Source of the DNA: Escherichia phage FEC19
Sequence record: MH816966
Reading direction: 5' to 3' (one strand)
DNA: 64,000 nt
In this document: piece after piece, positions 5,277 to 50,073 of the stretch
How positions within the stretch are numbered: position 1 is the stretch's first letter
How the letters are laid out: every line of letters starts with the position of its first letter
Position numbers and translations under genes: made by a program
Notes under the pieces: model-generated
What the model was told of the DNA's origin: nothing
The model's database searches: none
The model's input: the letters and a program-made list of their open reading frames with translations, nothing else

Positions 5277-5466
5277 GGTTGAATCTACCCTCTGTCAATA
5301 TCCGGTCGTGGATTACTATACCAGTACAGCGCAGGCGGTTGGCATTGCTTCGCGCCTTTGCTGCTTGATGAGGATTGAACAAGCCAAACAAACTAGCCTT
5401 AAAGGCAAACTGGTAATATTTGATTAAAGTACTAAGTGCTAACTCAATCCTGTCTAAATTAATCAT
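5242..5466 (-). CDS. hypothetical protein (74 aa)
   Basis: ATG preceded by GAGGTGA; overlaps the next ORF by 35 nt, so one of the two may be spurious. Confidence 0.3.
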   Translation of the reverse strand: MINLDRIELALSTLIKYYQFAFKASLFGLFNPHQAAKARSNANRLRCTGIVIHDRILTEGRFNHEYTRENNKAT

Positions 5467-5505
5467 AATATCACCTCGTCAGAAAAGCAAATATTTTGAT
5501 GATAA

Positions 5506-6153
5506 TTATCCTGTGGCCTGCATATTGCGTACATACTTCTGCTCTAATGAATAGATGAAGTCGGCGACCGTCAATCCTTTTGTGTGCCACTCATACATTG
5601 TGTAGCCTGTATTCAGGAAATAGCCGCGCACCTTGTCCATTGCTTCAGCTTCCTCCATGGAAGCCATCAGCGCGGCGACGTTATCATAAGAAGGCACAAA
5701 TCCCTTCTTGCGTAGCGCATTGCGCAAATCTTTAGTTCTGAATCCAATCTTGCACAGGTCATCACGGCCCGTTGAAGATGCAACCTTCGGCAGTGCAAGG
5801 AACTCTTTGAGGAACATCGAGATGTTCAGGTCGCCTGCATCATCAAGCTTCTGGAGTCGGTTGCGACCGCGACCCTTGAATTCACTTGCACGAGGGTGAG
5901 CGCCAAAACAATGCGCCCCTTCCAATTTAGGGTCGATGATCATCAAATCTTTGCCTACGCGCAATTCAACGTAGTAAAGGTATGTCTCATCGACAAGCTT
6001 CGTGCGTTTACAGGTGATGGAGTCCTTATCGTACCCAAAACCACGCAACACGGTTGAAATCATCCGGTTCATTTCTTCTCCATGAACGTCACTCTCTTTG
6101 TTCAGTTCACCGAGATGTTGAAAGAATTTAGCGATGTTGATTGCTTTATTCAT
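5506..6153 (-). CDS. hypothetical protein (215 aa)
   Basis: ORF immediately downstream of and coupled to the primase-helicase gene. Confidence 0.5.
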   Translation of the reverse strand: MNKAINIAKFFQHLGELNKESDVHGEEMNRMISTVLRGFGYDKDSITCKRTKLVDETYLYYVELRVGKDLMIIDPKLEGAHCFGAHPRASEFKGRGRNRLQKLDDAGDLNISMFLKEFLALPKVASSTGRDDLCKIGFRTKDLRNALRKKGFVPSYDNVAALMASMEEAEAMDKVRGYFLNTGYTMYEWHTKGLTVADFIYSLEQKYVRNMQATG

Positions 6154-7823
6154 CAGAATTCATCCTTATCTCTTCCTAAAGAACGTTTGCGTTCAATAAC
6201 CTTCTTCAAGAATTCAATATCTTCAGGGTCAGACTCGTCGCGGATAAGATACGCTAAGATAGTCATCAAATCAGAAATGTATTCCCCTGCTTCATTCTTA
6301 ATCAGCGGCGTAAAGTAACCACGCTGGTTGCGATAGGTTGCAGGCTCAAATCCAAGCTTCGACATGTGCGGCGCAAGGGTACGTGAGAAAGGCGACTTGC
6401 CGCACTTAGCTCTGAATCCCATAGCGATTGCACCACTGGTGATGTGCCAGCGTCCGCTGTGATGTCGGTCATAAGGCGCGGTGATGACGACTTCAACAAG
6501 GTCGTTGTCGACCATCTCGTCACGGATAACGCCGCGAGCGCGTTCCATTTCGTTCTTGCTGAACTCAGTAAGCATACGAGATGTCTCACCGACAAAGGCG
6601 TTATAACCTGCTTCGCCGTGCTTCTCCATCCACGCAGCGCACTCAGCCATCAGCTGCCAAACGTCTTCTTTCAAAGTTGAAAGGTCAGCTTGGAAGTCTT
6701 TAGACCAGTTCGGTTGCCCGTCCTTGTCGGCGAGTTGGCCAACAAAGATAGGATACACACGACGGTTGCCTGTATCGTCACGTTGCATGCCTGCGTATTC
6801 GTTGCCGTCCATGATAGCAATCCACTGGCGTGGTTTAACCTGCGTGTCTTCAAATTTGAAGTCCAGGTCATCTTCCGTCTTAGTCAGGAATGCTTTCATG
6901 TTTTCGATGTCGGCCTTTTTAAAGCCTGTCATCTCACCAACGTTCGCGATAATTGAGCGACCCGTAATAGCTCGCAAGAACGGGTTGAAGTTCTGCGCGG
7001 CCAAGTTCAACGGAATCGGTGTTGCGTGGCGGTCGTTCATAATAGCTTCGCAAAGTAGCTTACTAAAATAACTCTTCCCTGCGTTCTGGCCGCCGATGAG
7101 CGCAATGGAGATTGGCGCTTGACAGCCAGGGTTGGTCAGGCGGTTATAGAGCGATAGCCAAAAATACACACCGATTTGTCGGTTTAACTCTGTATCGAAC
7201 GGTCGGAATAGCTCGATAAGGTATTTCTCGATGCGCGCAGTGCCGTCCCATTCAGGAAGCTTCTTGTAGAAGAAGTCCATCAGGTCGTCGCGCTGATAAC
7301 GCATGGCCCATTCCTTATAGGATTGAGCGACCTGACGTGAGTTTGGGTTGGACAGACCTGCTGCGTCGACAGCGGCAACTATCTCTGTGACTTCCAATGT
7401 ACGGTCGGTGAATGTTTCGCCGCGATGGTCGACTAAGCGTCCACGAAAAGTATCTTTGTGAGGGAATGGGACAATGCCGCTTCCCTTATCAAACAACGCG
7501 TCGAAAACCGCATAACGGTTCATGTCACTCGTCCGGTCCGCCTGAAGAACAAAATCATCTTTCGTCGGTTTGTAGTGAGGGAACTTGATTACCTGAAGTG
7601 AGGCGAGCAAACGTGCTCTTTCAACCAAGTCTTCTTCGCCGTAGCACTCCATGCGCTCTGCATCTTTCTCAACAGCCTTATGCTGGAGGCTGATTTTAGC
7701 TCTGGTGCCTTGCTGCTCTGCCGCTTGCATCTCTTCTGACACACCAGCGTCTTGAATTTCGTCAAAGATTGCACCAAATTCATCACCTGTATCCTCTGGA
7801 AGATTGTCATGTTCAATTGACAT
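6153..7823 (-). CDS. DNA primase/helicase-like P-loop NTPase (VirE/D5-like)
   Basis: 556 aa with Walker A IALIGGQNAGKSYFSKLL; AGGAGG RBS before the ATG. Confidence 0.65.
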   Translation of the reverse strand: MSIEHDNLPEDTGDEFGAIFDEIQDAGVSEEMQAAEQQGTRAKISLQHKAVEKDAERMECYGEEDLVERARLLASLQVIKFPHYKPTKDDFVLQADRTSDMNRYAVFDALFDKGSGIVPFPHKDTFRGRLVDHRGETFTDRTLEVTEIVAAVDAAGLSNPNSRQVAQSYKEWAMRYQRDDLMDFFYKKLPEWDGTARIEKYLIELFRPFDTELNRQIGVYFWLSLYNRLTNPGCQAPISIALIGGQNAGKSYFSKLLCEAIMNDRHATPIPLNLAAQNFNPFLRAITGRSIIANVGEMTGFKKADIENMKAFLTKTEDDLDFKFEDTQVKPRQWIAIMDGNEYAGMQRDDTGNRRVYPIFVGQLADKDGQPNWSKDFQADLSTLKEDVWQLMAECAAWMEKHGEAGYNAFVGETSRMLTEFSKNEMERARGVIRDEMVDNDLVEVVITAPYDRHHSGRWHITSGAIAMGFRAKCGKSPFSRTLAPHMSKLGFEPATYRNQRGYFTPLIKNEAGEYISDLMTILAYLIRDESDPEDIEFLKKVIERKRSLGRDKDEF

Positions 7824-7889
7824 TTAATCCTCCTGATACGGCTTTGTTATATTGTTGCATGGATATATCCTTTCAGGGTGCGGTAAATA

Positions 7890-7910
7890 AACGCCAGAAA
7901 TCTGGCGTTG
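7890..7910 (-). terminator. hairpin terminator downstream of 7960-8250
   Basis: Perfect inverted repeat ACGCCAG-AAAT-CTGGCGT with U-rich sequence following on the minus transcript. Confidence 0.5.
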
Positions 7911-7959
7911 TATATTAATATAGTAAAACTCAGTTTAAAGCAATATAACTGGTGAACTA

Positions 7960-8250
7960 TCAGCAAGGAAATTGGTCAGCGTATGCCTTTCTCAATTTGT
8001 TTACTGACTGAACAGAATGAAGGTATTGGCAATCGGTGAAGATGCGGCGCAAACAATCCATAGAAGACAGGTCATCGTTAGTAACCACCAGAATCTCTTC
8101 CGAAGGGCAACCAGCTTCTTTGGCAATCTCATTAAGATTTGAGCCATTAATTTCTTCAACACGTTTCACCTCATCGATACCGTAAACATCAACGGCAACT
8201 TCGATGTCGTCATCGCTGATATTCTCACCATAAAGAATTACAATATTCAT
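7960..8250 (-). CDS. hypothetical acidic protein (96 aa)
   Basis: ORF followed by a hairpin terminator. Confidence 0.45.
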   Translation of the reverse strand: MNIVILYGENISDDDIEVAVDVYGIDEVKRVEEINGSNLNEIAKEAGCPSEEILVVTNDDLSSMDCLRRIFTDCQYLHSVQSVNKLRKAYADQFPC

Positions 8251-8369
8251 TTACTCACCCCTGCCAAATAATGTGCCATATCCAATACATATAATAGCCC
8301 CAGGATGATAACAAGGGAAATGATTAATGTGTATTTCTTTACGGCTTTCATATGTATCTATACCTAAAT

Positions 8370-8633
8370 TTACTGTTGAGGATCACCGATGGAGTCTGTC
8401 GCATCCCATTCAACGCGTGCTGTACGTTCTGCTGGTGGACAACCTTCTCCGGCGTAAAGCTCCACCACACCTTCGTGAGAGCAGCACTGGCACTCTACAA
8501 GGTCGCCGTCCTCCCAGGCACCTTCTTCTGCATTGCGATGCTGCCGCACCTTGATCACATCGCTTGCACAGTTAGGACAAGTCGAAAGACTGCTTGTGAC
8601 GTTCCAAACGAACTCGTTGCGGAAAGCACCCAT
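8370..8633 (-). CDS. small zinc-ribbon protein
   Basis: CPNC ... CQCC cysteine pairs; start refined to the internal ATG abutting the upstream stop. Confidence 0.4.
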   Translation of the reverse strand: MGAFRNEFVWNVTSSLSTCPNCASDVIKVRQHRNAEEGAWEDGDLVECQCCSHEGVVELYAGEGCPPAERTARVEWDATDSIGDPQQ

Positions 8634-8634
8634 G

Positions 8635-8925
8635 CTACACCTCTTGATCTCGCTGTTGTTGAATCGCGGCTGCAGCTTCTTCAAAATTGACGGGCTCAAC
8701 GGTAAATGTCGCGCTGACAGTGAAGTTGTTAATCGTCAGCAAAGTATTGAAACGCTCTGCATTCAGATTCATCGCCACGTGCGTCGACACATTAAGGATT
8801 GCACCAACGACTTCTTCCACCGCATAGCCTTTAAACAGAGGAAGAATTTCATTGACAAGCTTCAGCTCGTTCTCCACGCGAAGTTTTTGTGCTTCTTCAG
8901 TGGTCATCATTTTTGGTTCGTTCAT
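8635..8925 (-). CDS. hypothetical protein (96 aa)
   Basis: Intact ORF in operon context. Confidence 0.45.
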   Translation of the reverse strand: MNEPKMMTTEEAQKLRVENELKLVNEILPLFKGYAVEEVVGAILNVSTHVAMNLNAERFNTLLTINNFTVSATFTVEPVNFEEAAAAIQQQRDQEV

Positions 8926-8930
8926 TTTTA

Positions 8931-9074
8931 TTCCTTAACAAATTCAGAGTAGTGTTTGGCCGCAGCCGATTGGTGGTGAGCCATGACACCTTCAAGGGTG
9001 GGAAGCTCTACGTGCTTAGGTTCTAACGAATTTAACAGACCTTCAAGCTCGATGTTCAATTCTTCGCTTTGCAT
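8931..9074 (-). CDS. small hypothetical protein (47 aa)
   Basis: Not in the ORF track; ATG preceded by GAGGTGA and the ORF fills the gap to the next gene. Confidence 0.3.
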
Positions 9075-9132
9075 AAATCACCTCTGCTTCAGTTCATAAA
9101 ATGATTATAGTTGCTAGAAAAATAAAAGCAAA

Positions 9133-10215
9133 CTATTTTATGCCACCTGCGCGACGATTTATCATATCAAGTTGATTCTCAATATAAGGCATGACTACTG
9201 CTTCAACAAAAGCGGTCCAGCCTTTCTTGCCTTCACCTTTCCGGTGACAGTCGTGAGCGCAACCGAAAACGAATTCATGTTCAGCGCCAGGGATTGGGCC
9301 TCGAAAATAAGCGCCGTATGGGTCGCCGTTGGTGTGCTCTTCACCCCAAGGACAGATGATGCGGCATTTACCTGACATGTTTTCAACCACATCGCCATCG
9401 GACCCTTCGCCCATCTTATTGCGCGCAAGGATTTGCTGGGCTATTTTATACCAAACAGCATCATATTTGTATTCGTCAACGTCGATTTGAATTTCACGCT
9501 TTTGCGGCATAACGACGTGGAAACCGAAGGCTTGGCAAATCTCTTCGATTGTGTAGCGCAAGGAATAGTCTGCATGGACAAGTCGGCAGCGGAACGGGTC
9601 GCCGTTCTCATCGACATATTTATAGGGGCCGTCGTGAGTCACACGCTTGTTGTTGATGCACCCAGGAACACGGCCCACGCGCGTCACGTCTTTAATCGTG
9701 TTGTCGCCGCCCTTCTTGAGTACCATGTTTACGAAAGACCCAAGGAATGCTTTGAACTGAATAAGATGGTCAATCGGTTCTTTAAAGAAGTACCACAGCT
9801 GATGGTTGTTCGGCGAAGTCTCGACGATGACGGTTGGTTTTAGGCGCTCGAAAAAGAATTCCAAATCTAAATCGCCCTTTGACCCTTTACCGTGCCCAAT
9901 GTCGTCGACCATCATCGCCATGCCATGACCAAAGGCCGATTCCGTGCGCCAGTATCGCATCTCGCCTGTCTTTGGGTTGGGAGACTTACGCATTGAACTT
10001 ATGCAGGCGTAACCGTTCTGATGTTGCATCAGCGGCTTGCCAAGCTTCCAAGGCTTAGGCCAGAAGCTGCTGTTAATCTTTTTGCCGCGCTCGTCAGTCT
10101 GCACTGTTGCTTCAGGCGCAAACACGGTCATGACGCGTTCATCTTCTGGAATGCCTCTTTGGAGTTCCGTCAAAAACTCTTCGATTATTTTTGCTTCTTC
10201 TCTTAAACTAGCCAT
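9133..10215 (-). CDS. putative primase-polymerase (prim-pol/AEP-like) with C-terminal zinc-binding region
   Basis: VDDIGHG (DxD-like), SPNNHQLWYFF and RVPGCINNK segments resemble prim-pol motifs; C-terminal CPWGEEH ... GCAHDCH cysteine/histidine cluster. Confidence 0.5.
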   Translation of the reverse strand: MASLREEAKIIEEFLTELQRGIPEDERVMTVFAPEATVQTDERGKKINSSFWPKPWKLGKPLMQHQNGYACISSMRKSPNPKTGEMRYWRTESAFGHGMAMMVDDIGHGKGSKGDLDLEFFFERLKPTVIVETSPNNHQLWYFFKEPIDHLIQFKAFLGSFVNMVLKKGGDNTIKDVTRVGRVPGCINNKRVTHDGPYKYVDENGDPFRCRLVHADYSLRYTIEEICQAFGFHVVMPQKREIQIDVDEYKYDAVWYKIAQQILARNKMGEGSDGDVVENMSGKCRIICPWGEEHTNGDPYGAYFRGPIPGAEHEFVFGCAHDCHRKGEGKKGWTAFVEAVVMPYIENQLDMINRRAGGIK

Positions 10216-10244
10216 CTTTCTTTCCTTCGGTGATCAATACCTGC

Positions 10245-10272
10245 AGTATAATATTGAGTGATACAAAGTCAA
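10245..10272 (-). promoter_or_regulatory. sigma70-like promoter for the prim-pol gene
   Basis: Minus sense TTGACT-16-TATACT in the divergent intergenic region. Confidence 0.45.
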
Positions 10273-10375
10273 CAATATTTACCATTTAGTTCACAATTTC
10301 GATTTACTTTGCTTTATACTATATCTGCAATTATACTATCAGAAAATATTTCCGCACTAACAAAGGTCGCCTGAA

Positions 10376-10702
10376 ATGAACGAAAAAGATACGAAGCAAC
10401 GCGAACGTGCAACACACGTCGGCATCGTTGAGTCCTTCCTTAATACAAGACTGAATTCAAGTCTTACAATTATGCGATTCCTGGGTCAACCAGACAGAAT
10501 CAAATTCATCTTTGCCGCAAATCCGGTATCGCTTTACATCCCTGTTGAATCCATGGCGTACCTGGTGCGCGACGAGCAAGGGTGGAAGATACCAAACACG
10601 ACTGTTTTCTTCAGCCACGTTGACGGTGAGATGTTTGAACGAAAAGAAGATTGCCATTTTATTCCAGTATATCTGGACCTTGAAAGCGTAGTGGAGTTAT
10701 AA
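10376..10702 (+). CDS. hypothetical protein (108 aa)
   Basis: First gene of the plus-strand block; stop overlaps the helicase ATG (TAATG). Confidence 0.45.
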   Translation: MNEKDTKQRERATHVGIVESFLNTRLNSSLTIMRFLGQPDRIKFIFAANPVSLYIPVESMAYLVRDEQGWKIPNTTVFFSHVDGEMFERKEDCHFIPVYLDLESVVEL

Positions 10703-11886
10703 TGAACATTCCAGAATTTAATAATGAGCCAGTGATTCAGTTCAACGCGCAACAGATTGATGCCATCGAAAAGGCCGTTGCATGGTACAAGCGATTGCAG
10801 GACGGTAAAACGACGAAGCGCGTGTTTTTCATCGCTGGCTATGCAGGAACAGGTAAAACCTCTATTGCGCGTGAGATTGTGCGCCGTTGTGTCGGTGAGT
10901 ACGGTGCCATTTATATTGCGCCGACCGGAAAGGCCGCCAGCCGATTGAAGCAGAAAGGGTGTCGTGGCGCGAAGACCCTTCACCAGTTCATCTATAACGT
11001 GCGCGGCGTAAATGACGACAATGAGCCAATATTTTCGAGAAAGTCAAAGCTGGACGAAAAGCCGCATCTTGTAGTCCTTGATGAAGCTTCAATGGTTGGC
11101 GAGTGGGATACAGAGCGCCTTCTTGATCACCGCATCCCTGTGCTGGCATTAGGCGACATTGGACAAGTCCCTCCAGTAAAAGCCGCCGCCTACTTTACTG
11201 AAGATGCCGTTGACGTCCTGTTAACCGAAATCATGCGGCAGGGGAAAGAGTCCAACATAATCCGCGCTTCCTTCTTCGTGCGACAGGGCAACCGACTTCC
11301 TCCGCGTGAATACGATGACGTAAAGGTGTTGGCTGAATCGCCGCGCGTTACCGCGCTGAAGAAATTCATGGGCGAAGATGATCAAATTATTTGTTCATAT
11401 AATAGCACTAAAGATAAATGGAATTCATTATTGCGACAAGTGAGCGGACGTATAACGCCAATGCCAGGAATCGGCGAGAAAGTTATTTGCACATTCAACC
11501 AACACGGGCCAGGATTCTGTAATGGCGAGCAAGGGATTGTTATTAGTTATGAGCCAGTGCCGGACTTTGAAAGGGATGAAGACGAGTCTAATGAAATCAT
11601 GTATGTCAATTTGCGCTCGCTTACCGATGGCAAGGATATAAAGGTTAAGATCAATCCTCTTTCCTTCTCTACTGATCAGGAAGTGCGCAAAGAGGCTCAA
11701 CGCGCTGTTGGAGGTATGGACTATGGCTATGTCATAACGGTGCACAAATCGCAAGGCAGCGAGTGGGACAATGTGTGCGTGCTGGAAGAAATCTTGCGCG
11801 GCGTTCCGTATGCCAAGATGATGTACACAGCCATCACCCGCGCTAAGAAGAATCTGACCGTGTACCGTGATTTGAAAGCGCGTTAA
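10702..11886 (+). CDS. SF1 RecD/Dda-like DNA helicase
   Basis: Walker A GYAGTGKTS, Walker B VVLDEASMV, VHKSQGSEWDNV and AITRAKKNL; GTGGAG RBS. Confidence 0.85.
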   Translation: MNIPEFNNEPVIQFNAQQIDAIEKAVAWYKRLQDGKTTKRVFFIAGYAGTGKTSIAREIVRRCVGEYGAIYIAPTGKAASRLKQKGCRGAKTLHQFIYNVRGVNDDNEPIFSRKSKLDEKPHLVVLDEASMVGEWDTERLLDHRIPVLALGDIGQVPPVKAAAYFTEDAVDVLLTEIMRQGKESNIIRASFFVRQGNRLPPREYDDVKVLAESPRVTALKKFMGEDDQIICSYNSTKDKWNSLLRQVSGRITPMPGIGEKVICTFNQHGPGFCNGEQGIVISYEPVPDFERDEDESNEIMYVNLRSLTDGKDIKVKINPLSFSTDQEVRKEAQRAVGGMDYGYVITVHKSQGSEWDNVCVLEEILRGVPYAKMMYTAITRAKKNLTVYRDLKAR

Positions 11887-12045
11887 TGTTGACGTAAATT
11901 TACGAAAAATAAAACTGAAAATCAGTTTAATTAAAGTGGCATCGCCGCCAGAGTTTTTAGTTGCTACTGGCGGCGACTGAAGGCATAATTAAGTTATCCC
12001 AAACGGGGAATATAAAATAAACTAATTTATTTAAGGACTGTGAAT

Positions 12046-12885
12046 ATGGCCGAAGCAATCAAAGTATTATCTAAAGAAGAAAAACAAGCAGCTGCAGCAG
12101 AACGTCGTCGCGTGGCTGAAGAAAAACGCCTGGCTAAAAAGAAAGAAGCCGAAGAAAAACGCCAGAAGCGTGAGCAGGAAAAACAAGCCAAGCGTGAAGA
12201 AGCTGCGCTGAAACGCAAGCAGGCTGCTGATGAGAAGGCTCAGAAGCGTGCTGAAGAAGCAGCGAAGAAAGCCAAAGAGCGTGCAGAAAAGGCTGCTGCT
12301 AAGAAAGCAGAGCGTGAAGCCGCTAAAGCAGCAAAAGAAATCGAAAAGGCAAAGGCTAAAGAAGAAGCCAAGCGCCTGAAAGCTGAACAAGCTGCTGCTA
12401 AGAAAGCAGAGCGTGATCAAGCCCGTGCTGCAGCGAAGGCCGAAAAAGAGAAGGCCAAAGAAGAAGCTAAAGCGAAACGCAAGGCAGAGCGTGAAGCTGC
12501 TAAGATTGCGGCTAAAGAAGCTGCAGAAAAGCAGAAAGAACAGCGTAAGAAAGAAGCTGAAGAACGTCGCAAAGCCATCGCAGAACGTAAGGCTGCTAAA
12601 AAGGCAAACGGTCAGCGTCGTGCAAAAGCAACCCACTTCATCTACACTGGCAATGGCCTGAGCCAGCCGCAAGAGCATTCCACCCGTGGACGCGTTCTGG
12701 CGGCGATCAAAGAAGGCGAAGTTGGCGTGGCGCAGTCTATCGATGAGCTGGGCGAAAAAGTTAAAGATCAACTGTTTGGCGCTTCCGTTCGCTCCTACCT
12801 GAGCAAGCTGGAAGAGATGGGCCACATCGAGTTTGTCGATGTTGAATCCAACGAAGATGCCGAAGACGGTGATCAAGCGGAATAA
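12046..12885 (+). CDS. Lys/Glu/Ala-rich low-complexity protein with globular C-terminal domain
   Basis: About 200 aa of KAKEEAK/AEEKR repeats then an ordinary-composition C-terminal domain; ATG at 12046 with AAGGA RBS preferred over the GTG at 12040. Confidence 0.6.
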   Translation: MAEAIKVLSKEEKQAAAAERRRVAEEKRLAKKKEAEEKRQKREQEKQAKREEAALKRKQAADEKAQKRAEEAAKKAKERAEKAAAKKAEREAAKAAKEIEKAKAKEEAKRLKAEQAAAKKAERDQARAAAKAEKEKAKEEAKAKRKAEREAAKIAAKEAAEKQKEQRKKEAEERRKAIAERKAAKKANGQRRAKATHFIYTGNGLSQPQEHSTRGRVLAAIKEGEVGVAQSIDELGEKVKDQLFGASVRSYLSKLEEMGHIEFVDVESNEDAEDGDQAE

Positions 12886-17787: not shown

Positions 17788-18330
17788 GTGTTATTTCTCC
17801 CTTATGACTTCGAAACAACCGGATTAACCGTGCACCCGAAAGCGCCGCTTGGAATGCAGCCGCGCCCTATTGAATTTGCAGGCCTGTTGACGGATGGAAA
17901 AGAGATTCTTGAAACTTTCGAGTTCATAATTAATCCTGAAATTGTGATTGAAGAAATCATCACAAAGATTACCGGATTAACCAATGAAGACCTTGAGTGC
18001 AATCCACCCTTTATTCATTTCGTTCCGCAACTAAAAGACATCTTCAAGAAGACTGATGCCACTATCGCGCACAACCATGCGTTCGATAAGAACATCCTTG
18101 ATTATGCATTGCAGCGCGAAGGTCTTACACTTGGTGATGTTAATTTTCCAGAAATAAACATTTGTACAGTCGAGCAAACCTTGCCTATTTTTGGCCGAAG
18201 AGTTAAGCTTCAAGAGCTGTATGAATTATATTTCGGAAAATATGAACAGAAGCACCGTGCATTAGACGACGTAATATTACTGCACAAAGTCTGCCAACAA
18301 ATTGGCGTATATGACATCTGGAGTAAATAA
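17788..18330 (+). CDS. DnaQ-like 3'-5' proofreading exonuclease (DEDDh)
   Basis: Exo I LPYDFETTGL, Exo II HNHAFDKNIL, Exo III HRALDDV; GTG start after GGAGG. Confidence 0.85.
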   Translation: MLFLPYDFETTGLTVHPKAPLGMQPRPIEFAGLLTDGKEILETFEFIINPEIVIEEIITKITGLTNEDLECNPPFIHFVPQLKDIFKKTDATIAHNHAFDKNILDYALQREGLTLGDVNFPEINICTVEQTLPIFGRRVKLQELYELYFGKYEQKHRALDDVILLHKVCQQIGVYDIWSK

Positions 18331-21227
18331 TGTTTCCACAATTGAGAGTTCGCAGCGGTTACACGTTCAAAGAAGTATATGGACGGCATCCTGAAATTAT
18401 AGCACGGCTCAAAGAGTTGGGCTGCGAAGTCGCGGCATTAGTTGATAACAATACATGGGGTCACGTTCGCTGGGAAAAGGAATGCCAGAAAAATGATATT
18501 AAGCCTATGTTCGGCATGGAGATTCCAATCATCGACCCTGATGCGGACCCGAAAAAGGGATTCAAACCGAAGGCTTGGATATTGGCGCTTGACCTGAAAT
18601 CCTTTTACAATGCGACCACGCTTGCAACACAGCGCGGCGGATTGACCCGTGCAGAGTTCGGGGCGCTGGATGGCGTCGTTAAATTCTGTGGCGGTGCCGT
18701 GGAGCTGCTGCGGCCAGAGGACTACGATTATATAGACGTCAACCCATCATCGTTCCTTTTGGCCAAGCGCCAGGTATTGGCTCACCGCAGCAACGGAAGG
18801 CCGCTGGTTTTAACCGGATACAACCACATGCCTTCACCTGAGCACGTTGACTTTGCTTATGCTTGGGAAGTGCGCGACACGGTTAAGCCGCACTGCATCG
18901 TTGACGCGGAAGACTTGCGCAAACAGCTTAAAGGAATCCTGACCGAAGATGAGTTGAATCAAGCAACGGCCAATGCGGTTGATATTGCAAACGGAATCGT
19001 TGGGCTTGACCTGAAGCTGCGCAAGGCACCGATTATCCACCTTGCTGGTGACATGGTAAAGCTTGCTCGTGAGGGGATGGAGTACCGCCTCAAAGCAGGT
19101 CACATCAAAGAATGGACGCAGGAATATGAGGACCGATTCAACGAAGAGATTCACCAGATTCAGCTGAAAGATTTCGACTCATACTTTCTGGTGGTAGCGG
19201 ACCTTGTACGATTTGCAAAAACAAAAATGCTCGTCGGACCCGCTCGCGGCTCATCGGCTGGTTCACTGGTTTGTTATTGCCTCGGCATCACGGAAGTTGA
19301 CCCAATCCCGTATAAGCTGCTATTTGCCCGATTCATCGACGTAAGCCGCGCCGACCTCCCTGATATTGATATTGACTTTGAGGACACCAAACGCTATATG
19401 GTGTTTGATTACCTCAAAGAAAAATACGGCGAAATGAACGTTGCAAAGCTTGGAAACATCAACACGCTTAAGGCCAACTCAGTAATGGCTCAGGTTGGTA
19501 AGAAGTTCAACATTGGATATCACGAAACGGCCAACATTAAAAACGCATTGCTTGAATACTCATCCGGTGACGCCCGTTATGGTCACGGTCTGGAGGATAC
19601 CTTTGCAACAACGACCACGGGCCAAGAGTTCGTGGCGAAATATCCTGACGCCGCGCGATGCATGGGTGACCTTGAGATTCACCCTTCTCACACTGGCGTT
19701 CATGCAGCGGGAATCATTGTGTGTAATGACCCAATCTCTGATTACTGTACTGTAACGGCGGAAGGGATTGCGCAAATTGATAAGCCTGACAGCGAATACC
19801 TTAACCTTTTGAAGCTTGATGCGTTGGGCCTTCGTACCCTCGGCATCATTTCTGATACTGGCGTGATAGATGCTGAAACGCTGTACGGAATCAAGCTTGA
19901 TGATCAAAGCGTCCTTGACATCCTTAACGAAAACAAAATGTCAGGCATCTTCCAGTTTGAAGGTGACGCTGTACGCTCAGTAACCAACTTTGTGCACGTT
20001 GATAACTTTAACAAAATCGATAACCTGACAGCACTTGGTCGACCTGGCCCGTTGTCATCCGGTATGGCCCAAAAATACATCGAACGCGCGGCAGGACGTG
20101 CGCCGATTGAGTACGACGTGCCGCAGCTTGAGCCGTACTTAAAAGAGACTTACGGCGTGTTCCTTTACCAAGAGCAAATCATGGCCGTGGTTAAAGAGAT
20201 TGGTTCATTTGACTGGGCGAAAACATCAGCCGTGCGTAAGGCGATGTCAGGTCGTAAGGGTGAGGAATACTTTAACAAGCTTGGCGAAGACTTCGTTGCA
20301 GGCGCAATAAATAACGGCGTACCGGAAGCGGATGCAAGAAAGCTTTGGCAGGCGATGGCGACGTTCGGGTCATGGGGCTTTAACAAGTCACACTCCGTGT
20401 CATACGCGGTCGTAACCTACTGGACCTTGTGGCTTAAACGACACTACCCGTTGGAATTTGCCGCTGCTTGCTTACGCGCTGCTAAGGACGAAGACCAGAC
20501 GATTGCGATATTACGTGAACTTGCGAAGGAAGGCGTGGATTATGTGCCAATCGACCCTGATCACTCTTCAATGAACTGGACCATCGCTAACGGAAAGCTA
20601 ATCGGCGGCATCATGAACGCTAAAGGGTACGGAATGGTGAAGGCGATGAAGTACATCGAAGCACGTGAAGCCGGAACCTTAACGCAAAAGCAGAAGGATG
20701 CATTGGCCAATGCTGAAGTCAAATACGGCGACCTTACAGAGATGCACACCAAGTTCGGCTGGGCATATAATGACCCATATCTTATTGGCGTCACTTCCGG
20801 CGCTTCAATACGCCAGATGAAGGAAGTAGGCGATGATGAGCGTGCAATAGTAATCGGCAAACTGACCAAGAAAGTGCTGGCAGACGAGAACGAAGCAACA
20901 CGCATCCGTAAACGTCTTGAGCGCGGCATTTACACAAAGCACGGCAAACTTAAAAAGGGTCTTCAAGCTGATGGTCGCTACGCAGAGTTTGACCAGTATG
21001 GAAACAAGCTTGAAACTCAATTCATCGACCTTATGTGCAAGGACGATTCGACCGACTCGCCAATGCGCTTCAGGATTCGCCCAGAGAAGTTCCAGAAATA
21101 CGGGAAGTACATTGCAGAGAACGTCGGGAACGGTGCATTCTTCCTGATGAAAGGCCGCAAGCTTGAAGGTATTGATATGTTCATCGTCGACGTTATCAAA
21201 CAGGTGTATCCAGATGGCAACAAATAA
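18330..21227 (+). CDS. DNA polymerase III alpha (DnaE)-like replicative polymerase
   Basis: 965 aa; PHP-like N-terminus and SHSVSYAVVTYWTLWLKRHYPLEFAAA segment; coupled to the exonuclease gene by TAATG. Confidence 0.9.
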   Translation: MFPQLRVRSGYTFKEVYGRHPEIIARLKELGCEVAALVDNNTWGHVRWEKECQKNDIKPMFGMEIPIIDPDADPKKGFKPKAWILALDLKSFYNATTLATQRGGLTRAEFGALDGVVKFCGGAVELLRPEDYDYIDVNPSSFLLAKRQVLAHRSNGRPLVLTGYNHMPSPEHVDFAYAWEVRDTVKPHCIVDAEDLRKQLKGILTEDELNQATANAVDIANGIVGLDLKLRKAPIIHLAGDMVKLAREGMEYRLKAGHIKEWTQEYEDRFNEEIHQIQLKDFDSYFLVVADLVRFAKTKMLVGPARGSSAGSLVCYCLGITEVDPIPYKLLFARFIDVSRADLPDIDIDFEDTKRYMVFDYLKEKYGEMNVAKLGNINTLKANSVMAQVGKKFNIGYHETANIKNALLEYSSGDARYGHGLEDTFATTTTGQEFVAKYPDAARCMGDLEIHPSHTGVHAAGIIVCNDPISDYCTVTAEGIAQIDKPDSEYLNLLKLDALGLRTLGIISDTGVIDAETLYGIKLDDQSVLDILNENKMSGIFQFEGDAVRSVTNFVHVDNFNKIDNLTALGRPGPLSSGMAQKYIERAAGRAPIEYDVPQLEPYLKETYGVFLYQEQIMAVVKEIGSFDWAKTSAVRKAMSGRKGEEYFNKLGEDFVAGAINNGVPEADARKLWQAMATFGSWGFNKSHSVSYAVVTYWTLWLKRHYPLEFAAACLRAAKDEDQTIAILRELAKEGVDYVPIDPDHSSMNWTIANGKLIGGIMNAKGYGMVKAMKYIEAREAGTLTQKQKDALANAEVKYGDLTEMHTKFGWAYNDPYLIGVTSGASIRQMKEVGDDERAIVIGKLTKKVLADENEATRIRKRLERGIYTKHGKLKKGLQADGRYAEFDQYGNKLETQFIDLMCKDDSTDSPMRFRIRPEKFQKYGKYIAENVGNGAFFLMKGRKLEGIDMFIVDVIKQVYPDGNK

Positions 21228-21636
21228 CCGCGAGCAAAAATACATATTCGTTCCTTTGAAGAAGCATTCAGAATCAATATTGAAGCTTCAACGAATCGAA
21301 TCGATGACTGGTGATGGCGTGCCGGACGTAATCGGCACCAACCGGAAAGGTCGCGGCTTTTGGCTTGAAATGAAGTTCTTTGAATCGTGGCCTGCAAGGG
21401 CCACCACTGCACCTTTCAGAAATGCATTTGAGAAAGGTCAGTGCAGCTTTCTTTCTTCGTGGAATGATTGGAAATACCCATCATTTGTTTTGCTTAAAGT
21501 CGATTCTGAGAAGATGTTTTATTTAGTCCACCCTTCGATTGAATTAAAGCGTTATAATATTGCAGACGTTCAACGTGAGATAATCGTGAAGGGAACTATT
21601 CACCACATCATTAAGTATTTAGAGGAATTGTCATGA
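21214..21636 (+). CDS. VRR-NUC-like nuclease
   Basis: GVPDVIGTNRKGRGFWLEMKF; start refined to MATNNREQKY; sits immediately upstream of the SNF2 helicase. Confidence 0.55.
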   Translation: MATNNREQKYIFVPLKKHSESILKLQRIESMTGDGVPDVIGTNRKGRGFWLEMKFFESWPARATTAPFRNAFEKGQCSFLSSWNDWKYPSFVLLKVDSEKMFYLVHPSIELKRYNIADVQREIIVKGTIHHIIKYLEELS

Positions 21637-23156
21637 AAACACAAGGGATGCGCCACCAGCTTCTGGCGCTTGATAAAGCAGGCCGCAGAAAATACTTTGC
21701 CTATTTCATGGAACAGGGTCTTGGTAAAACTTGGACCGCTTTGGCAGAGTTTGAAAAGCACTTCACCGCTGGCGCGTTCGATGCCATGGTAGTCATCGCT
21801 CCAAACGGTGTCCACTCAAACTGGATTCGTCGTGAAGCGCCAGAGCACCTTTCCATCAAGTGGATTGGGCACTACTGGCGCGGCAACGATAAGATGAAAA
21901 CTAAAAAGGGCAAGGCGCTTTGGGAGAAGATGTTTGCTGATCACTACCCCGAAGGCGAAGTGCCTGCGCGCATCTTCTCATTCAACATCGATACTGTCAA
22001 CACACCAGTCGGTTATCAACACATCGAGTCGGTCTTGAAGAAGTACCGCTGCCTGATGATCATCGACGAATCAACGCGCATCAAGAATAACACAGCCAAA
22101 CGCTCCATCAAGGTTGTGGAATTGGGACGGCTGGCAAAGGCCCGTCGAATCCTTTCTGGCACGCCGTTGCCGCGCTCGCCTGCGGATATTTACATGCAAT
22201 ACCACTTCCTTGAAGCAGGATTGCTCGGCACCAAATCATTCCGTGCCTTTAACTCTGAATTTACAGTGCTGCTTGAAGCGCACGACCCAGAGATGCAAGC
22301 CATCCTCAAGAAAATCGGCGGCAATGGCTATGGGATTCCGCAAGTGCCGCGCAAAGACCAGTTTGGCCGACCGATGTACAAGAACCTTGACAAGCTTATC
22401 CGGCTGATGGAACCGCACTATTTTCGTGCAACAAAAGCAGAATACTTGCCTGACCTTCCAGAGAAGGTGTACAAGTTTATTGACTTCGAGTTGTCGCCTA
22501 AACAACGCGATGTTTACGATGAACTCAAGAATGAGTACAACTATTTGATGGAATACAAGGGCGAAGAAGAAAACGTCAAGTTTGAGATGATCGCGTCGCG
22601 CACTAAGATGAAGCAGGTGACATCCGGCTTTGTTAAGGTGTATGATGAGATGGTCTACATGGAAGACAACCCACGATTCACGGCCTTTAAGGATTATGTG
22701 GAAGGTGTGCTGGAAGATGACCCAGAGCGCAAATTCATCGTTTGGGCCATCTTTAAGGAAGAGATGAACCAGATTAAGGACTGGCTTGAGTCTGAAGGCG
22801 TGGTCACTGGTGTATACAATGGTGAAACGTCCAAAGAGCAGCGAGAGTTCTTAATTGATGACTTCCAGAAGAATACAGTCGAGAACGGCGGAACGCAAGT
22901 CTTGGTTTGCCACGCTGCAGCGGCAGGCATCGGCATCACTCTTACCGCCGCTGACTTGGCAATTTATTATTCTTGCAACTACGACAACGAGCTGCGCAAA
23001 CAATCCGAAGACCGAAATCACCGCATCGGCACCAAATCAAGCGTGTTGTATGTTGATTTTATTGGTGTTGATACCATCGACGAAGAAATTCAGCGTTCAC
23101 TCAGTATGAAGTCAATGCTTGCTGATCACATCCTCGACGGCAAAAAGATGAATTAA
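21633..23156 (+). CDS. SNF2-family helicase
   Basis: LMIIDESTRIKN (DExx box), ILSGTPL, and a C-terminal helicase domain; ATGA overlap with the upstream gene. Confidence 0.85.
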   Translation: MKTQGMRHQLLALDKAGRRKYFAYFMEQGLGKTWTALAEFEKHFTAGAFDAMVVIAPNGVHSNWIRREAPEHLSIKWIGHYWRGNDKMKTKKGKALWEKMFADHYPEGEVPARIFSFNIDTVNTPVGYQHIESVLKKYRCLMIIDESTRIKNNTAKRSIKVVELGRLAKARRILSGTPLPRSPADIYMQYHFLEAGLLGTKSFRAFNSEFTVLLEAHDPEMQAILKKIGGNGYGIPQVPRKDQFGRPMYKNLDKLIRLMEPHYFRATKAEYLPDLPEKVYKFIDFELSPKQRDVYDELKNEYNYLMEYKGEEENVKFEMIASRTKMKQVTSGFVKVYDEMVYMEDNPRFTAFKDYVEGVLEDDPERKFIVWAIFKEEMNQIKDWLESEGVVTGVYNGETSKEQREFLIDDFQKNTVENGGTQVLVCHAAAAGIGITLTAADLAIYYSCNYDNELRKQSEDRNHRIGTKSSVLYVDFIGVDTIDEEIQRSLSMKSMLADHILDGKKMN

Positions 23157-49656: not shown

Positions 49657-49744
49657 CCACCCTCAAATAAGTATTGTGTATTATATCTAATGAAAAAAAC
49701 TTAGGCAAACAATAATTATGGTTTGAATATGTATAACAACCGAT

Positions 49745-50030
49745 ATAGCCGCGCCTTAATTAGTGTGATACGGATGATACGGATAAAATGAGGCGTATTT
49801 TTATCCGTATCGGTGTATAAGCCGCGCTATCACTGGTGTGCTACGGATGATACGGATGATACGGATACTTTTCATATATAAGAGTTTATAAAAAAAATAA
49901 AATTAAATTAGATATATAATTTTAAATTAATTTATTTGAATTCCTATAAAGTATCGCGGCAACGCGTATCATCCGTATCATCCGTAAGATTCTTTTGAAA
50001 ACAACTACTTACTTGATACGGATGATACGT
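49745..50030. repeat. iteron-like 9-bp repeat array flanking an AT-rich core
   Basis: GATACGGAT units, direct at 49767-49784, 49843-49868 and 50015-50029 and inverted at 49803-49811 and 49967-49987, around an 80-bp core of over 80% A+T (49869-49950). Confidence 0.7.
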
Positions 50031-50073
50031 CATTATACGCGTAAAATCCTGCGGCAATCCATTGCCAGGCGAT

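What the first reader, a model, noticed from the sequence alone, without database searches (positions are those of the whole stretch)
6153..10215. Two separate primase-type genes in the early operon
A VirE/D5-like P-loop primase-helicase (6153-7823) and a prim-pol-like protein with a C-terminal zinc cluster (9133-10215) are both present, while the DnaE/DnaQ polymerase is in the opposite-strand module. The division of labour between the two primase-like proteins is unclear.
Basis: partly seen in the sequence, partly recalled or inferred. Interest (0 to 1): 0.35.

Follow-up and report, generated by a model that had tools for sequence, protein, structure and literature searches.

The report
Phage primase plus helicase, not two primases
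The two "primase-type" genes of this E. coli phage are one true primase and one ring helicase that work as a pair, an arrangement already known from related phages and staphylococcal islands, so the finding is ordinary.

Summary
The window is a Wifcevirus-type E. coli myophage, 98% identical to phage Ro157lw. Both ORFs exist at the stated coordinates, on the minus strand.

The 360-aa product (9133-10215) is a RepB'-type archaeo-eukaryotic primase.

The two genes are linked. In 48 of 48 testable related phage loci the helicase gene lies downstream of the primase gene on the same strand, and natural single-chain fusions of both exist. So the division of labour is primase plus helicase, as in SaPI Pri-Rep. 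The Pbunavirus orthologues were already read this way in 2025.

In passing I found a strongly conserved iteron and AT-rich element at 49740-50035. It is a candidate replication origin. I also found a near-universal C-terminal phenylalanine on the helicase.

The parts
9133..10215 (-). Primase gene (360 aa): RepB'-type AEP catalytic domain plus a C-terminal zinc module
9505..10140 (-). AEP catalytic domain (about res 26-237). Invariant residues: D104 D105 (motif I), E132-T-S-P-x-N-x-Q139 (motif II, with Gln), D171/D176 (motif III), R179/R182 (motif IV).
   Evidence: All are invariant in 44 homologues of 52-81% identity. The ETSPxNYQxW segment aligns to the same segment of RepB'. Gln in motif II is typical of RepB'/PolpTN2-like AEPs (PMC5862659).
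9241..9369 (-). Zinc module (res 283-325): C288-x5-H294 ... C319-x-H321-xx-[C/H]324
10245..10272 (-). Sigma-70-like promoter in front of the primase gene
   Evidence: TTGACT-16-TATACT, 10 of 12 matches. This is a consensus match only.
6153..7823 (-). Helicase gene (556 aa): VapE-family SF3 helicase, SaPI Rep1-like
6684..7259 (-). SF3 ATPase core (about res 189-380): Walker A G244-x-Q-xx-GKS251, E297 (Walker B region), N341 (motif C), R354 R355 (arginine finger region)
   Evidence: These residues are invariant in 50 homologues of 35-75% identity.
7260..7748 (-). Helicase N-terminal domain (about res 26-188): a long helix plus a small alpha/beta domain, with no primase motifs
6156..6683 (-). Helicase C-terminal domain (about res 381-540) plus a flexible tail ending in an invariant Phe (F556)
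   Evidence: 48 of 50 homologues end in Phe after a Gly/Asp/Glu-rich tail. This domain is the most variable part of the alignment. It occupies the position of Rep1's origin-binding winged-helix domain (PMC9371898); that correspondence is an inference.
7889..7909 (-). Hairpin (AACGCCAGA-TTT-TCTGGCGTT) between the small ORFs and the helicase gene
   Evidence: Read directly from the sequence. The WFH record annotates a terminator at the equivalent place. It did not meet the T-run criterion of the scan.
7960..9080 (-). Four to six small ORFs inserted between the primase and helicase genes. They include a 96-aa ORF (7960-8250) and a CxxC...CxxC protein (ORF 8370-8699; annotated from a later start in Bas100).
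   Evidence: None has a family assignment apart from phrog_4446, of unknown function. These ORFs are absent from Pbunavirus-type loci, where the two genes lie 57-450 bp apart.
10702..11886 (+). Dda-like SF1 helicase, divergently transcribed from the primase gene
   Evidence: Pfam AAA_30 and UvrD_C_2; phrog_325 'Dda-like helicase' 2.8e-100. It lies upstream of the primase gene, on the opposite strand, in nearly all related loci with enough upstream sequence.
17788..21227 (+). DnaQ-like 3'-5' exonuclease (17788-18330) and DnaE-like Pol III alpha (18330-21227)
   Evidence: Pfam RNase_T 3e-21; DNA_pol3_alpha 3e-63, finger domain 1e-37, PHP.
49740..50035 (.). Candidate replication origin: 9-bp iterons (GATACGGAT) in both orientations around an 83-bp core of 9.6% GC
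   Evidence: There are 7 exact copies, all within 257 bp, against 0.5 expected in the whole window. Perfect 22-nt inverted arms at 49842-63 and 49965-86 flank the AT core. The left part and AT-rich core are about 99% conserved across Wifcevirus clades, and Bas101 lacks exactly one 9-bp unit. Function is inferred, not shown.

Best explanation
The region encodes a two-gene primase-helicase module of a Wifcevirus/Pbunavirus-type phage replisome, not two primases.

The 360-aa protein is the phage's primase. It has a RepB'-type archaeo-eukaryotic primase domain that makes the first dinucleotide and a short primer on single-stranded template. It also has a C-terminal Cys/His zinc module, which probably plays the template-holding and initiation role that the helix-bundle domain plays in RepB' (inferred).

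The 556-aa protein is a hexameric SF3 helicase of the VapE/SaPI-Rep1 type. By analogy with Rep1, E1 and D5 it encircles the leading-strand template and moves 3'->5', driven by ATP hydrolysis at the Walker A / arginine-finger interface (inferred from homology). Its variable C-terminal domain probably recognises the origin, so that it loads itself (inferred). Its flexible tail, ending in an invariant Phe, probably docks a partner such as the DnaE-type polymerase or the primase (inferred).

The phage's DnaE/DnaQ pair, encoded on the other strand, extends the primers. An SF3 helicase is not expected to recruit host DnaG the way DnaB does, so a phage-encoded primase is needed.
For: Family and fold of the primase. 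Its catalytic and zinc residues are invariant in 44 homologues.

Functional linkage: in 48 of 48 related IMG/VR loci with enough downstream sequence, the helicase gene follows the primase gene on the same strand, 57 bp to 8.6 kb away. Natural fusions exist. P0241 (946 aa) carries the whole primase, including the zinc module, followed by a region 37% identical to helicase residues 26-439.

Literature: SaPIs encode a primase gene just upstream of rep, and SaPI5 fuses the two (PMC9371898). The fused architecture primase-PriCT/ZnBD-VirE-WH is common in mobile elements (PMC5862659). The Pbunavirus orthologues were read as a primase and a SaPI-like self-loading helicase (PMC12390725).
Confidence: 0.85

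Rival explanations
1. Two genuine primases, as the first reader and the GenBank/PHROG labels have it. On this view the 556-aa protein is a bifunctional primase-helicase, like vaccinia D5 or a VirE-type protein with an N-terminal AEP, and the 360-aa protein is a second, specialised primase or prim-pol.
For: phrog_4630 and several GenBank records call the 556-aa protein 'DNA primase'. Many VapE-domain proteins elsewhere are fused to primase domains (PMC5862659). About 160 structured residues N-terminal to the ATPase have no assigned function.
Confidence: 0.05
2. The 360-aa AEP acts only at the origin, like RepB' of RSF1010, which primes at ssiA/ssiB and supports leading-strand-only replication, or it acts as a repriming or translesion prim-pol. 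Lagging-strand priming would then be left to host DnaG.
Against: The accessory domain is a zinc module, not RepB's helix bundle. The gene is strictly coupled, and sometimes fused, to a replicative-type SF3 helicase. That is the arrangement of general replicative primase-helicases. The phage carries its own DnaE/DnaQ, so a polymerase role is not needed. An SF3 helicase is not expected to recruit DnaG the way DnaB does (established knowledge).
Confidence: 0.08
3. The two proteins are functionally unrelated neighbours. The VapE-like ATPase would serve another process, such as recombination, packaging or counter-defence.
For: The two genes are 1.3 kb apart, with small ORFs and a hairpin between them. 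The phage already has two other helicase-like proteins, Dda-like and SNF2-like.
Against: Order and strand are conserved in 48 of 48 testable loci across genera infecting Escherichia, Pantoea, Pseudomonas, Burkholderia, Xanthomonas, Erwinia and Serratia. Natural fusions exist. The closest structure is a replication initiator-helicase.
Confidence: 0.02

Closest known systems
SaPI1 Pri + Rep1 (staphylococcal pathogenicity island replication module; PDB 7pds; PMC9371898)
   Different: In SaPIs the two genes are adjacent and the iteron origin lies immediately downstream of rep. Here 1.3 kb of small ORFs separate them and no iterons lie nearby. The phage helicase is about 80-100 residues longer than Rep1 (556 aa against a 477-residue deposited chain). 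It has an extra acidic, disordered N-terminus and a long helix, and a C-terminal tail ending in Phe. I did not compare the SaPI primase with the 360-aa protein.
Pbunavirus replication genes (Pseudomonas phage Banzai gp075 primase and gp077 self-loading helicase; PMC12390725)
   Same: These appear to be the orthologous pair. Pseudomonas-phage proteins P0009 (64% identical primase) and P0154 (45% identical helicase) are close homologues. I did not compare the Banzai proteins themselves. Gene order is the same, the Dda-like helicase is divergent in both, and both use DnaE/DnaQ polymerase genes. The published interpretation is the one reached here.
   Different: In Pbunavirus-type loci the match to the helicase begins 350-450 bp after the end of the primase match. 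Wifceviruses have extra small ORFs between the two genes.
Fused primase-ZnBD/PriCT-VirE(VapE)-WH proteins of the PrimPol-PV1 supergroup (PrimQH and RepB' families; PMC5862659)
   Same: The same domains occur in the same order. The fusion P0241 (946 aa) contains both window proteins end to end. Motif II has Gln and motif IV has Arg.
   Different: Here the chain is split into two genes. I did not determine which of the published families (RepB' or PrimQH) the primase belongs to.
RSF1010 RepB' primase (PDB 3h20/3h25; PMC8567376)
   Different: RepB' has a helix-bundle (PriCT-1) accessory domain, whereas this protein has a Cys/His zinc module. RepB' works with a RecA-type helicase (RepA) and a separate initiator (RepC), and it primes only at ssiA/ssiB.
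T7 gp4 helicase-primase and SSB-type C-terminal tails (own knowledge, not tested here)
   Same: A replicative helicase with a flexible, often acidic or glycine-rich C-terminal tail ending in phenylalanine. In T7 gp4 and gp2.5 that Phe docks onto the DNA polymerase.
   Different: T7 gp4 is an SF4 (RecA-type) helicase fused to a Toprim primase. The resemblance is limited to the tail, and its partner here is unknown.

Membership tests
AEP superfamily, RepB'-type primase (Pfam PF16793) | Score above the curated family threshold | tested here: met
   126.4 bits against a cut-off of 24.3, res 40-237.
AEP superfamily, RepB'-type primase (Pfam PF16793) | AEP catalytic fold | tested here: met
AEP superfamily, RepB'-type primase (Pfam PF16793) | Catalytic acidic residues (motifs I and III), motif II with Gln as in RepB'/PolpTN2, and the motif IV Arg | tested here: met
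   D104, D105, S134, N137, Q139, D171, D176, R179 and R182 are invariant in 44 homologues. Motif II aligns to RepB' ETSPKNYQAW. Equivalence of D171 to D134 and of R182 to R145 is inferred from spacing.
AEP superfamily, RepB'-type primase (Pfam PF16793) | Helix-bundle (PriCT-1) accessory domain as in the prototype RepB' | tested here: not met
   The C-terminal 120 residues hit no Pfam family, including PriCT. They carry an invariant C-H-C-H(+C/H) set instead. This is a variant accessory domain, and ZnBDs are known in related AEP families (PMC5862659).
AEP superfamily, RepB'-type primase (Pfam PF16793) | De novo primer synthesis | not testable with these tools
   Needs a biochemical assay.
VapE-family SF3 helicase / SaPI Rep-type self-loading helicase | Score above the curated family threshold (PF05272) | tested here: met
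   100.1 bits against a cut-off of 25, res 189-407.
VapE-family SF3 helicase / SaPI Rep-type self-loading helicase | SF3 motifs: Walker A, Walker B acid, motif C Asn, arginine finger | tested here: met
   G244, Q246, G249, K250, S/T251, E297, N341, R354 and R355 are invariant in 50 homologues.
VapE-family SF3 helicase / SaPI Rep-type self-loading helicase | Fold shared with Rep1 beyond the ATPase core | tested here: met
VapE-family SF3 helicase / SaPI Rep-type self-loading helicase | Iteron origin immediately downstream of the helicase gene, bound by its C-terminal winged-helix domain | tested here: not met
   The next gene overlaps the helicase stop codon. No iteron arrays occur in 5400-10800. 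An iteron and AT-rich element does exist elsewhere, at 49740-50035, but its link to the helicase is untested.
VapE-family SF3 helicase / SaPI Rep-type self-loading helicase | ATP-dependent unwinding and origin melting | not testable with these tools
   Needs a biochemical assay.
Bifunctional primase-helicase (D5 / VirE-with-AEP / P4 alpha type), as a label for the 556-aa protein | A primase catalytic domain (AEP or Toprim) in the same polypeptide | tested here: not met

The most novel reading that the evidence does not exclude
The conserved iteron and AT-rich element at 49740-50035, upstream of the head maturation protease gene and 40 kb from the replication genes, may be the phage's replication origin. 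On this reading the variable C-terminal domain of the Rep1-like helicase recognises it. The helicase's invariant C-terminal Phe then tethers the DnaE-type polymerase or the AEP primase, giving a compact self-loading replisome. That might help explain the very fast growth reported for wifceviruses. I found no origin assigned for this phage group, apart from GC-skew guesses in the Banzai paper, in the papers I could search.
Probability: 0.3. Interest if true: 0.4.

Novelty: already known. Interest (0 to 1): 0.15.

Why it matters
The main value is as an annotation correction. The 556-aa VapE-family protein of wifceviruses, and PHROG 4630, should be called a replicative or initiator SF3 helicase rather than 'DNA primase'. 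The 96-aa Mansfield gp081 should not be called a primase at all. With that fixed, the phage has an ordinary one-primase, one-helicase replisome of a known type, and there is no two-primase puzzle. Two side observations give concrete handles for anyone studying replication of the Wifcevirus/Pbunavirus group, which includes therapeutic Pseudomonas phages: the candidate iteron origin and the C-terminal Phe on the helicase.

Tried and rejected
- NCBIfam gave nothing for either protein or their neighbours.
- Pfam on the three unassigned domains (primase C-terminus, helicase N-terminus, helicase C-terminus) gave nothing, even at E<=10.
- Sequence searches of the PDB with the primase, as a single sequence and as a profile, gave only marginal RepB' hits (E 0.04-0.4). 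The fold search was needed.
- I looked for iterons, tandem repeats or inverted repeats next to the helicase and primase genes, as in SaPI origins, and found only chance-level two-copy repeats.
- The Mansfield annotation of the 96-aa ORF (window 7960-8250) as 'DNA primase, HHpred 3H25_A' has no support from Pfam, PHROGs, NCBIfam or the PDB.
- GC skew is dominated by the direction of transcription and does not locate an origin.
- The Xanthomonas phage XcP1 syntenic gap showed no clear iterons.
- I could not run a domain-only structure search of the zinc module, or a complex prediction of primase with helicase.
Full report
What the window is. The region 5500-10300 is 98.4% identical to Escherichia phage vB_EcoM-Ro157lw and 93-98% identical to 26 other Wifcevirus-type myophages. 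These phages have genomes of 66-72 kb and are distant relatives of Pseudomonas Pbunavirus (PB1-like) phages (PMC11990801).

Check of the observation. Both ORFs exist at exactly the stated coordinates, on the minus strand: 6153-7823 (556 aa) and 9133-10215 (360 aa). They are the largest genes of a long leftward operon of mostly small ORFs. A sigma-70-like promoter (TTGACT-16-TATACT, 10272-10245) lies just upstream of the 360-aa gene. On the plus strand, starting divergently at 10376, lie several replication genes. These are a Dda-like SF1 helicase (10702-11886), a DnaQ-like exonuclease (17788-18330), a DnaE-like Pol III alpha (18330-21227) and an SNF2-type ATPase (21633-23156). Public records already annotate both ORFs, in several cases both as 'DNA primase'.

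The 360-aa protein is a primase. It matches Pfam RepB_primase (126 bits against a cut-off of 24.3, residues 40-237) and phrog_4861 over its full length. It has more than 180 homologues, nearly all 350-400 aa long, from phages of Pantoea, Pseudomonas, Erwinia, Burkholderia, Xanthomonas and Luteibacter and from metagenomic contigs of 65-74 kb.

7pds is Rep1 of SaPI1, a hexameric self-loading initiator-helicase. It has an N-terminal domain of unknown function, an SF3 ATPase and a C-terminal winged-helix domain that binds iterons (PMC9371898). Walker A (G244..GKS251), E297, N341 and R354-R355 are invariant in 50 homologues.

The two genes are a functional pair. I fetched 56 related loci from IMG/VR using the primase profile and located both genes by tblastn. 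In all 48 loci with enough downstream sequence, the helicase gene follows the primase gene on the same strand. The 8 loci without a helicase match end at most 3.8 kb after the primase gene. The distance between the two matches ranges from 57 bp to 8.6 kb, with a median of 716 bp. In Pbunavirus-type loci the helicase match begins a few hundred bases after the primase match ends, whereas wifceviruses have four to six small ORFs inserted (window 7960-9080). The Dda-like helicase lies upstream of the primase gene, on the opposite strand, throughout.

A profile search of 1.8 billion representative proteins found natural fusions. P0241 (946 aa) matches the entire primase profile at residues 21-373 (E 7e-131), including the Cys/His set. 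Its residues 416-834 are 37% identical to residues 26-439 of the window helicase (E 5e-79). Pfam sees RepB_primase plus VapE-like_dom in it. P0241 lies on a contig with a phage integrase and a Pbunavirus-type structural gene. Other relatives fuse the same primase and zinc module to DUF5906, DUF927 or RecA-type (AAA_25) helicase domains. The fused order primase-PriCT/ZnBD-VirE-WH was catalogued in 2018 (PMC5862659). SaPIs show both the split form (SaPI1 pri, rep) and the fused form (SaPI5 prirep).

How it most likely works. What is shown is family membership, folds, conserved catalytic residues, synteny and fusion. The rest is inferred. The SF3 helicase forms a hexamer, loads itself at an origin through its variable C-terminal domain, and translocates 3'->5' on the leading-strand template. 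The AEP primase, helped by its zinc module, makes primers on the displaced strand and at initiation. The phage DnaE/DnaQ pair extends them. An SF3 helicase is not expected to recruit host DnaG the way DnaB does, so a phage primase is required. Whether the primers are RNA or, as for RepB', DNA is unknown.

Comparison with what is known. [quoted passage not shown] The finding is therefore a known kind of module in a known phage, with an imprecise database label on one gene. The BASEL paper on wifceviruses never mentions a primase.

Side observation 1: a candidate origin. No iterons lie near the helicase gene. A tandem-repeat scan of the whole window picked out an intergenic region upstream of the head maturation protease gene. 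All seven exact copies of GATACGGAT in the 64-kb window lie within 49767-50023, against 0.5 expected. They are arranged as direct arrays on the left, then an 83-bp core of 9.6% GC, then inverted copies on the right. Perfect 22-nt inverted arms (49842-63 and 49965-86) lie 101 nt apart.

This is the layout of SaPI origins: iterons on each side of an AT-rich region, pointing in opposite directions. The left part and the AT-rich core are about 99% identical between Wifcevirus clades whose replication-gene region (window 5500-10300) is only about 93% identical, and the whole 450-bp stretch is about 96% identical. Bas101 lacks exactly one 9-bp unit. The syntenic non-coding gaps of Pantoea phage Kyle and Pseudomonas phage PB1 (about 515 and 550 bp) have their own short repeats around an AT-rich core. 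These are GGTTATT units in Kyle and GGTAATTTGG-type units in PB1. XcP1 shows no clear iterons.

The element could equally be a late-promoter control region, because it lies upstream of a structural operon. No paper I could search assigns an origin to this phage group beyond GC-skew guesses.

Side observation 2: the helicase tail. 48 of 50 helicase homologues end in Phe after a Gly/Asp/Glu-rich tail. Three fused relatives with DUF5906 helicase domains also end in Phe. From my own knowledge, this recalls the C-terminal Phe of T7 gp4, T7 gp2.5 and bacterial SSB, which docks partner proteins.

Verdict. There is one primase and one helicase, not two primases. Novelty is 'already known' and interest is low (0.15). 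The candidate origin and the tail motif are the only parts that might repay experiments.

Noticed in passing
window 49740-50035: Intergenic element upstream of the head maturation protease gene. It has seven exact 9-bp GATACGGAT units in both orientations around an 83-bp core of 9.6% GC, and perfect 22-nt inverted arms. Its left part and AT-rich core are more conserved between Wifcevirus clades (about 99%) than coding DNA, and Bas101 lacks exactly one unit. The layout is like a SaPI iteron origin. It could also be a late-promoter control region.
   Followed up: partly
L061 1850-2190 (Pantoea phage Kyle) and L063 4660-5010 (Pseudomonas phage PB1): The syntenic non-coding gaps of about 515 and 550 bp upstream of the head maturation protease gene carry genus-specific short repeats around an AT-rich centre: GGTTATT units in Kyle and GGTAATTTGG-type units in PB1. 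A GC-rich motif of the type CGCGGCA / TGCCGC(A/G) recurs in all three genera.
   Followed up: partly
window 6156-6203 (helicase residues 541-556): The helicase ends in a flexible tail with a terminal Phe. This is conserved in 48 of 50 homologues and in fused relatives with other helicase domains. It resembles the partner-docking tails of T7 gp4, T7 gp2.5 and SSB.
   Followed up: partly
window 7960-8250 (-): This 96-aa ORF is annotated 'DNA primase (HHpred 3H25_A)' in phage Mansfield (gp081).
   Followed up: yes
window 5506-6153 (-): The start codon of this 215-aa ORF overlaps the helicase stop codon by one base, which suggests translational coupling. It has no family match. It is conserved in wifceviruses and only weakly (27%) in Pantoea phage Kyle. 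It may be a helicase accessory protein.
   Followed up: no
window 8370-8699 (-): A small protein between the primase and helicase genes carries CPNC...CQCC, a zinc-ribbon-like pattern. It has a weak Pfam Zn_Ribbon_YjdM hit and matches phrog_4446, of unknown function. The listed ORF overlaps the 96-aa ORF 8635-8925, and Bas100 annotates a shorter start.
   Followed up: no
window 12000-12600 (+): Very strong AT skew (+0.5 to +0.66) inside the ORF 12040-12885, an A-rich coding strand with no Pfam match.
   Followed up: no
L060 2912-4018 and 8001-10841: The natural primase-helicase fusion P0241 lies on a metagenomic contig that also carries a phage integrase and an E217 gp32-like structural gene. 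This suggests a temperate or integrated relative of this otherwise lytic phage group.
   Followed up: no
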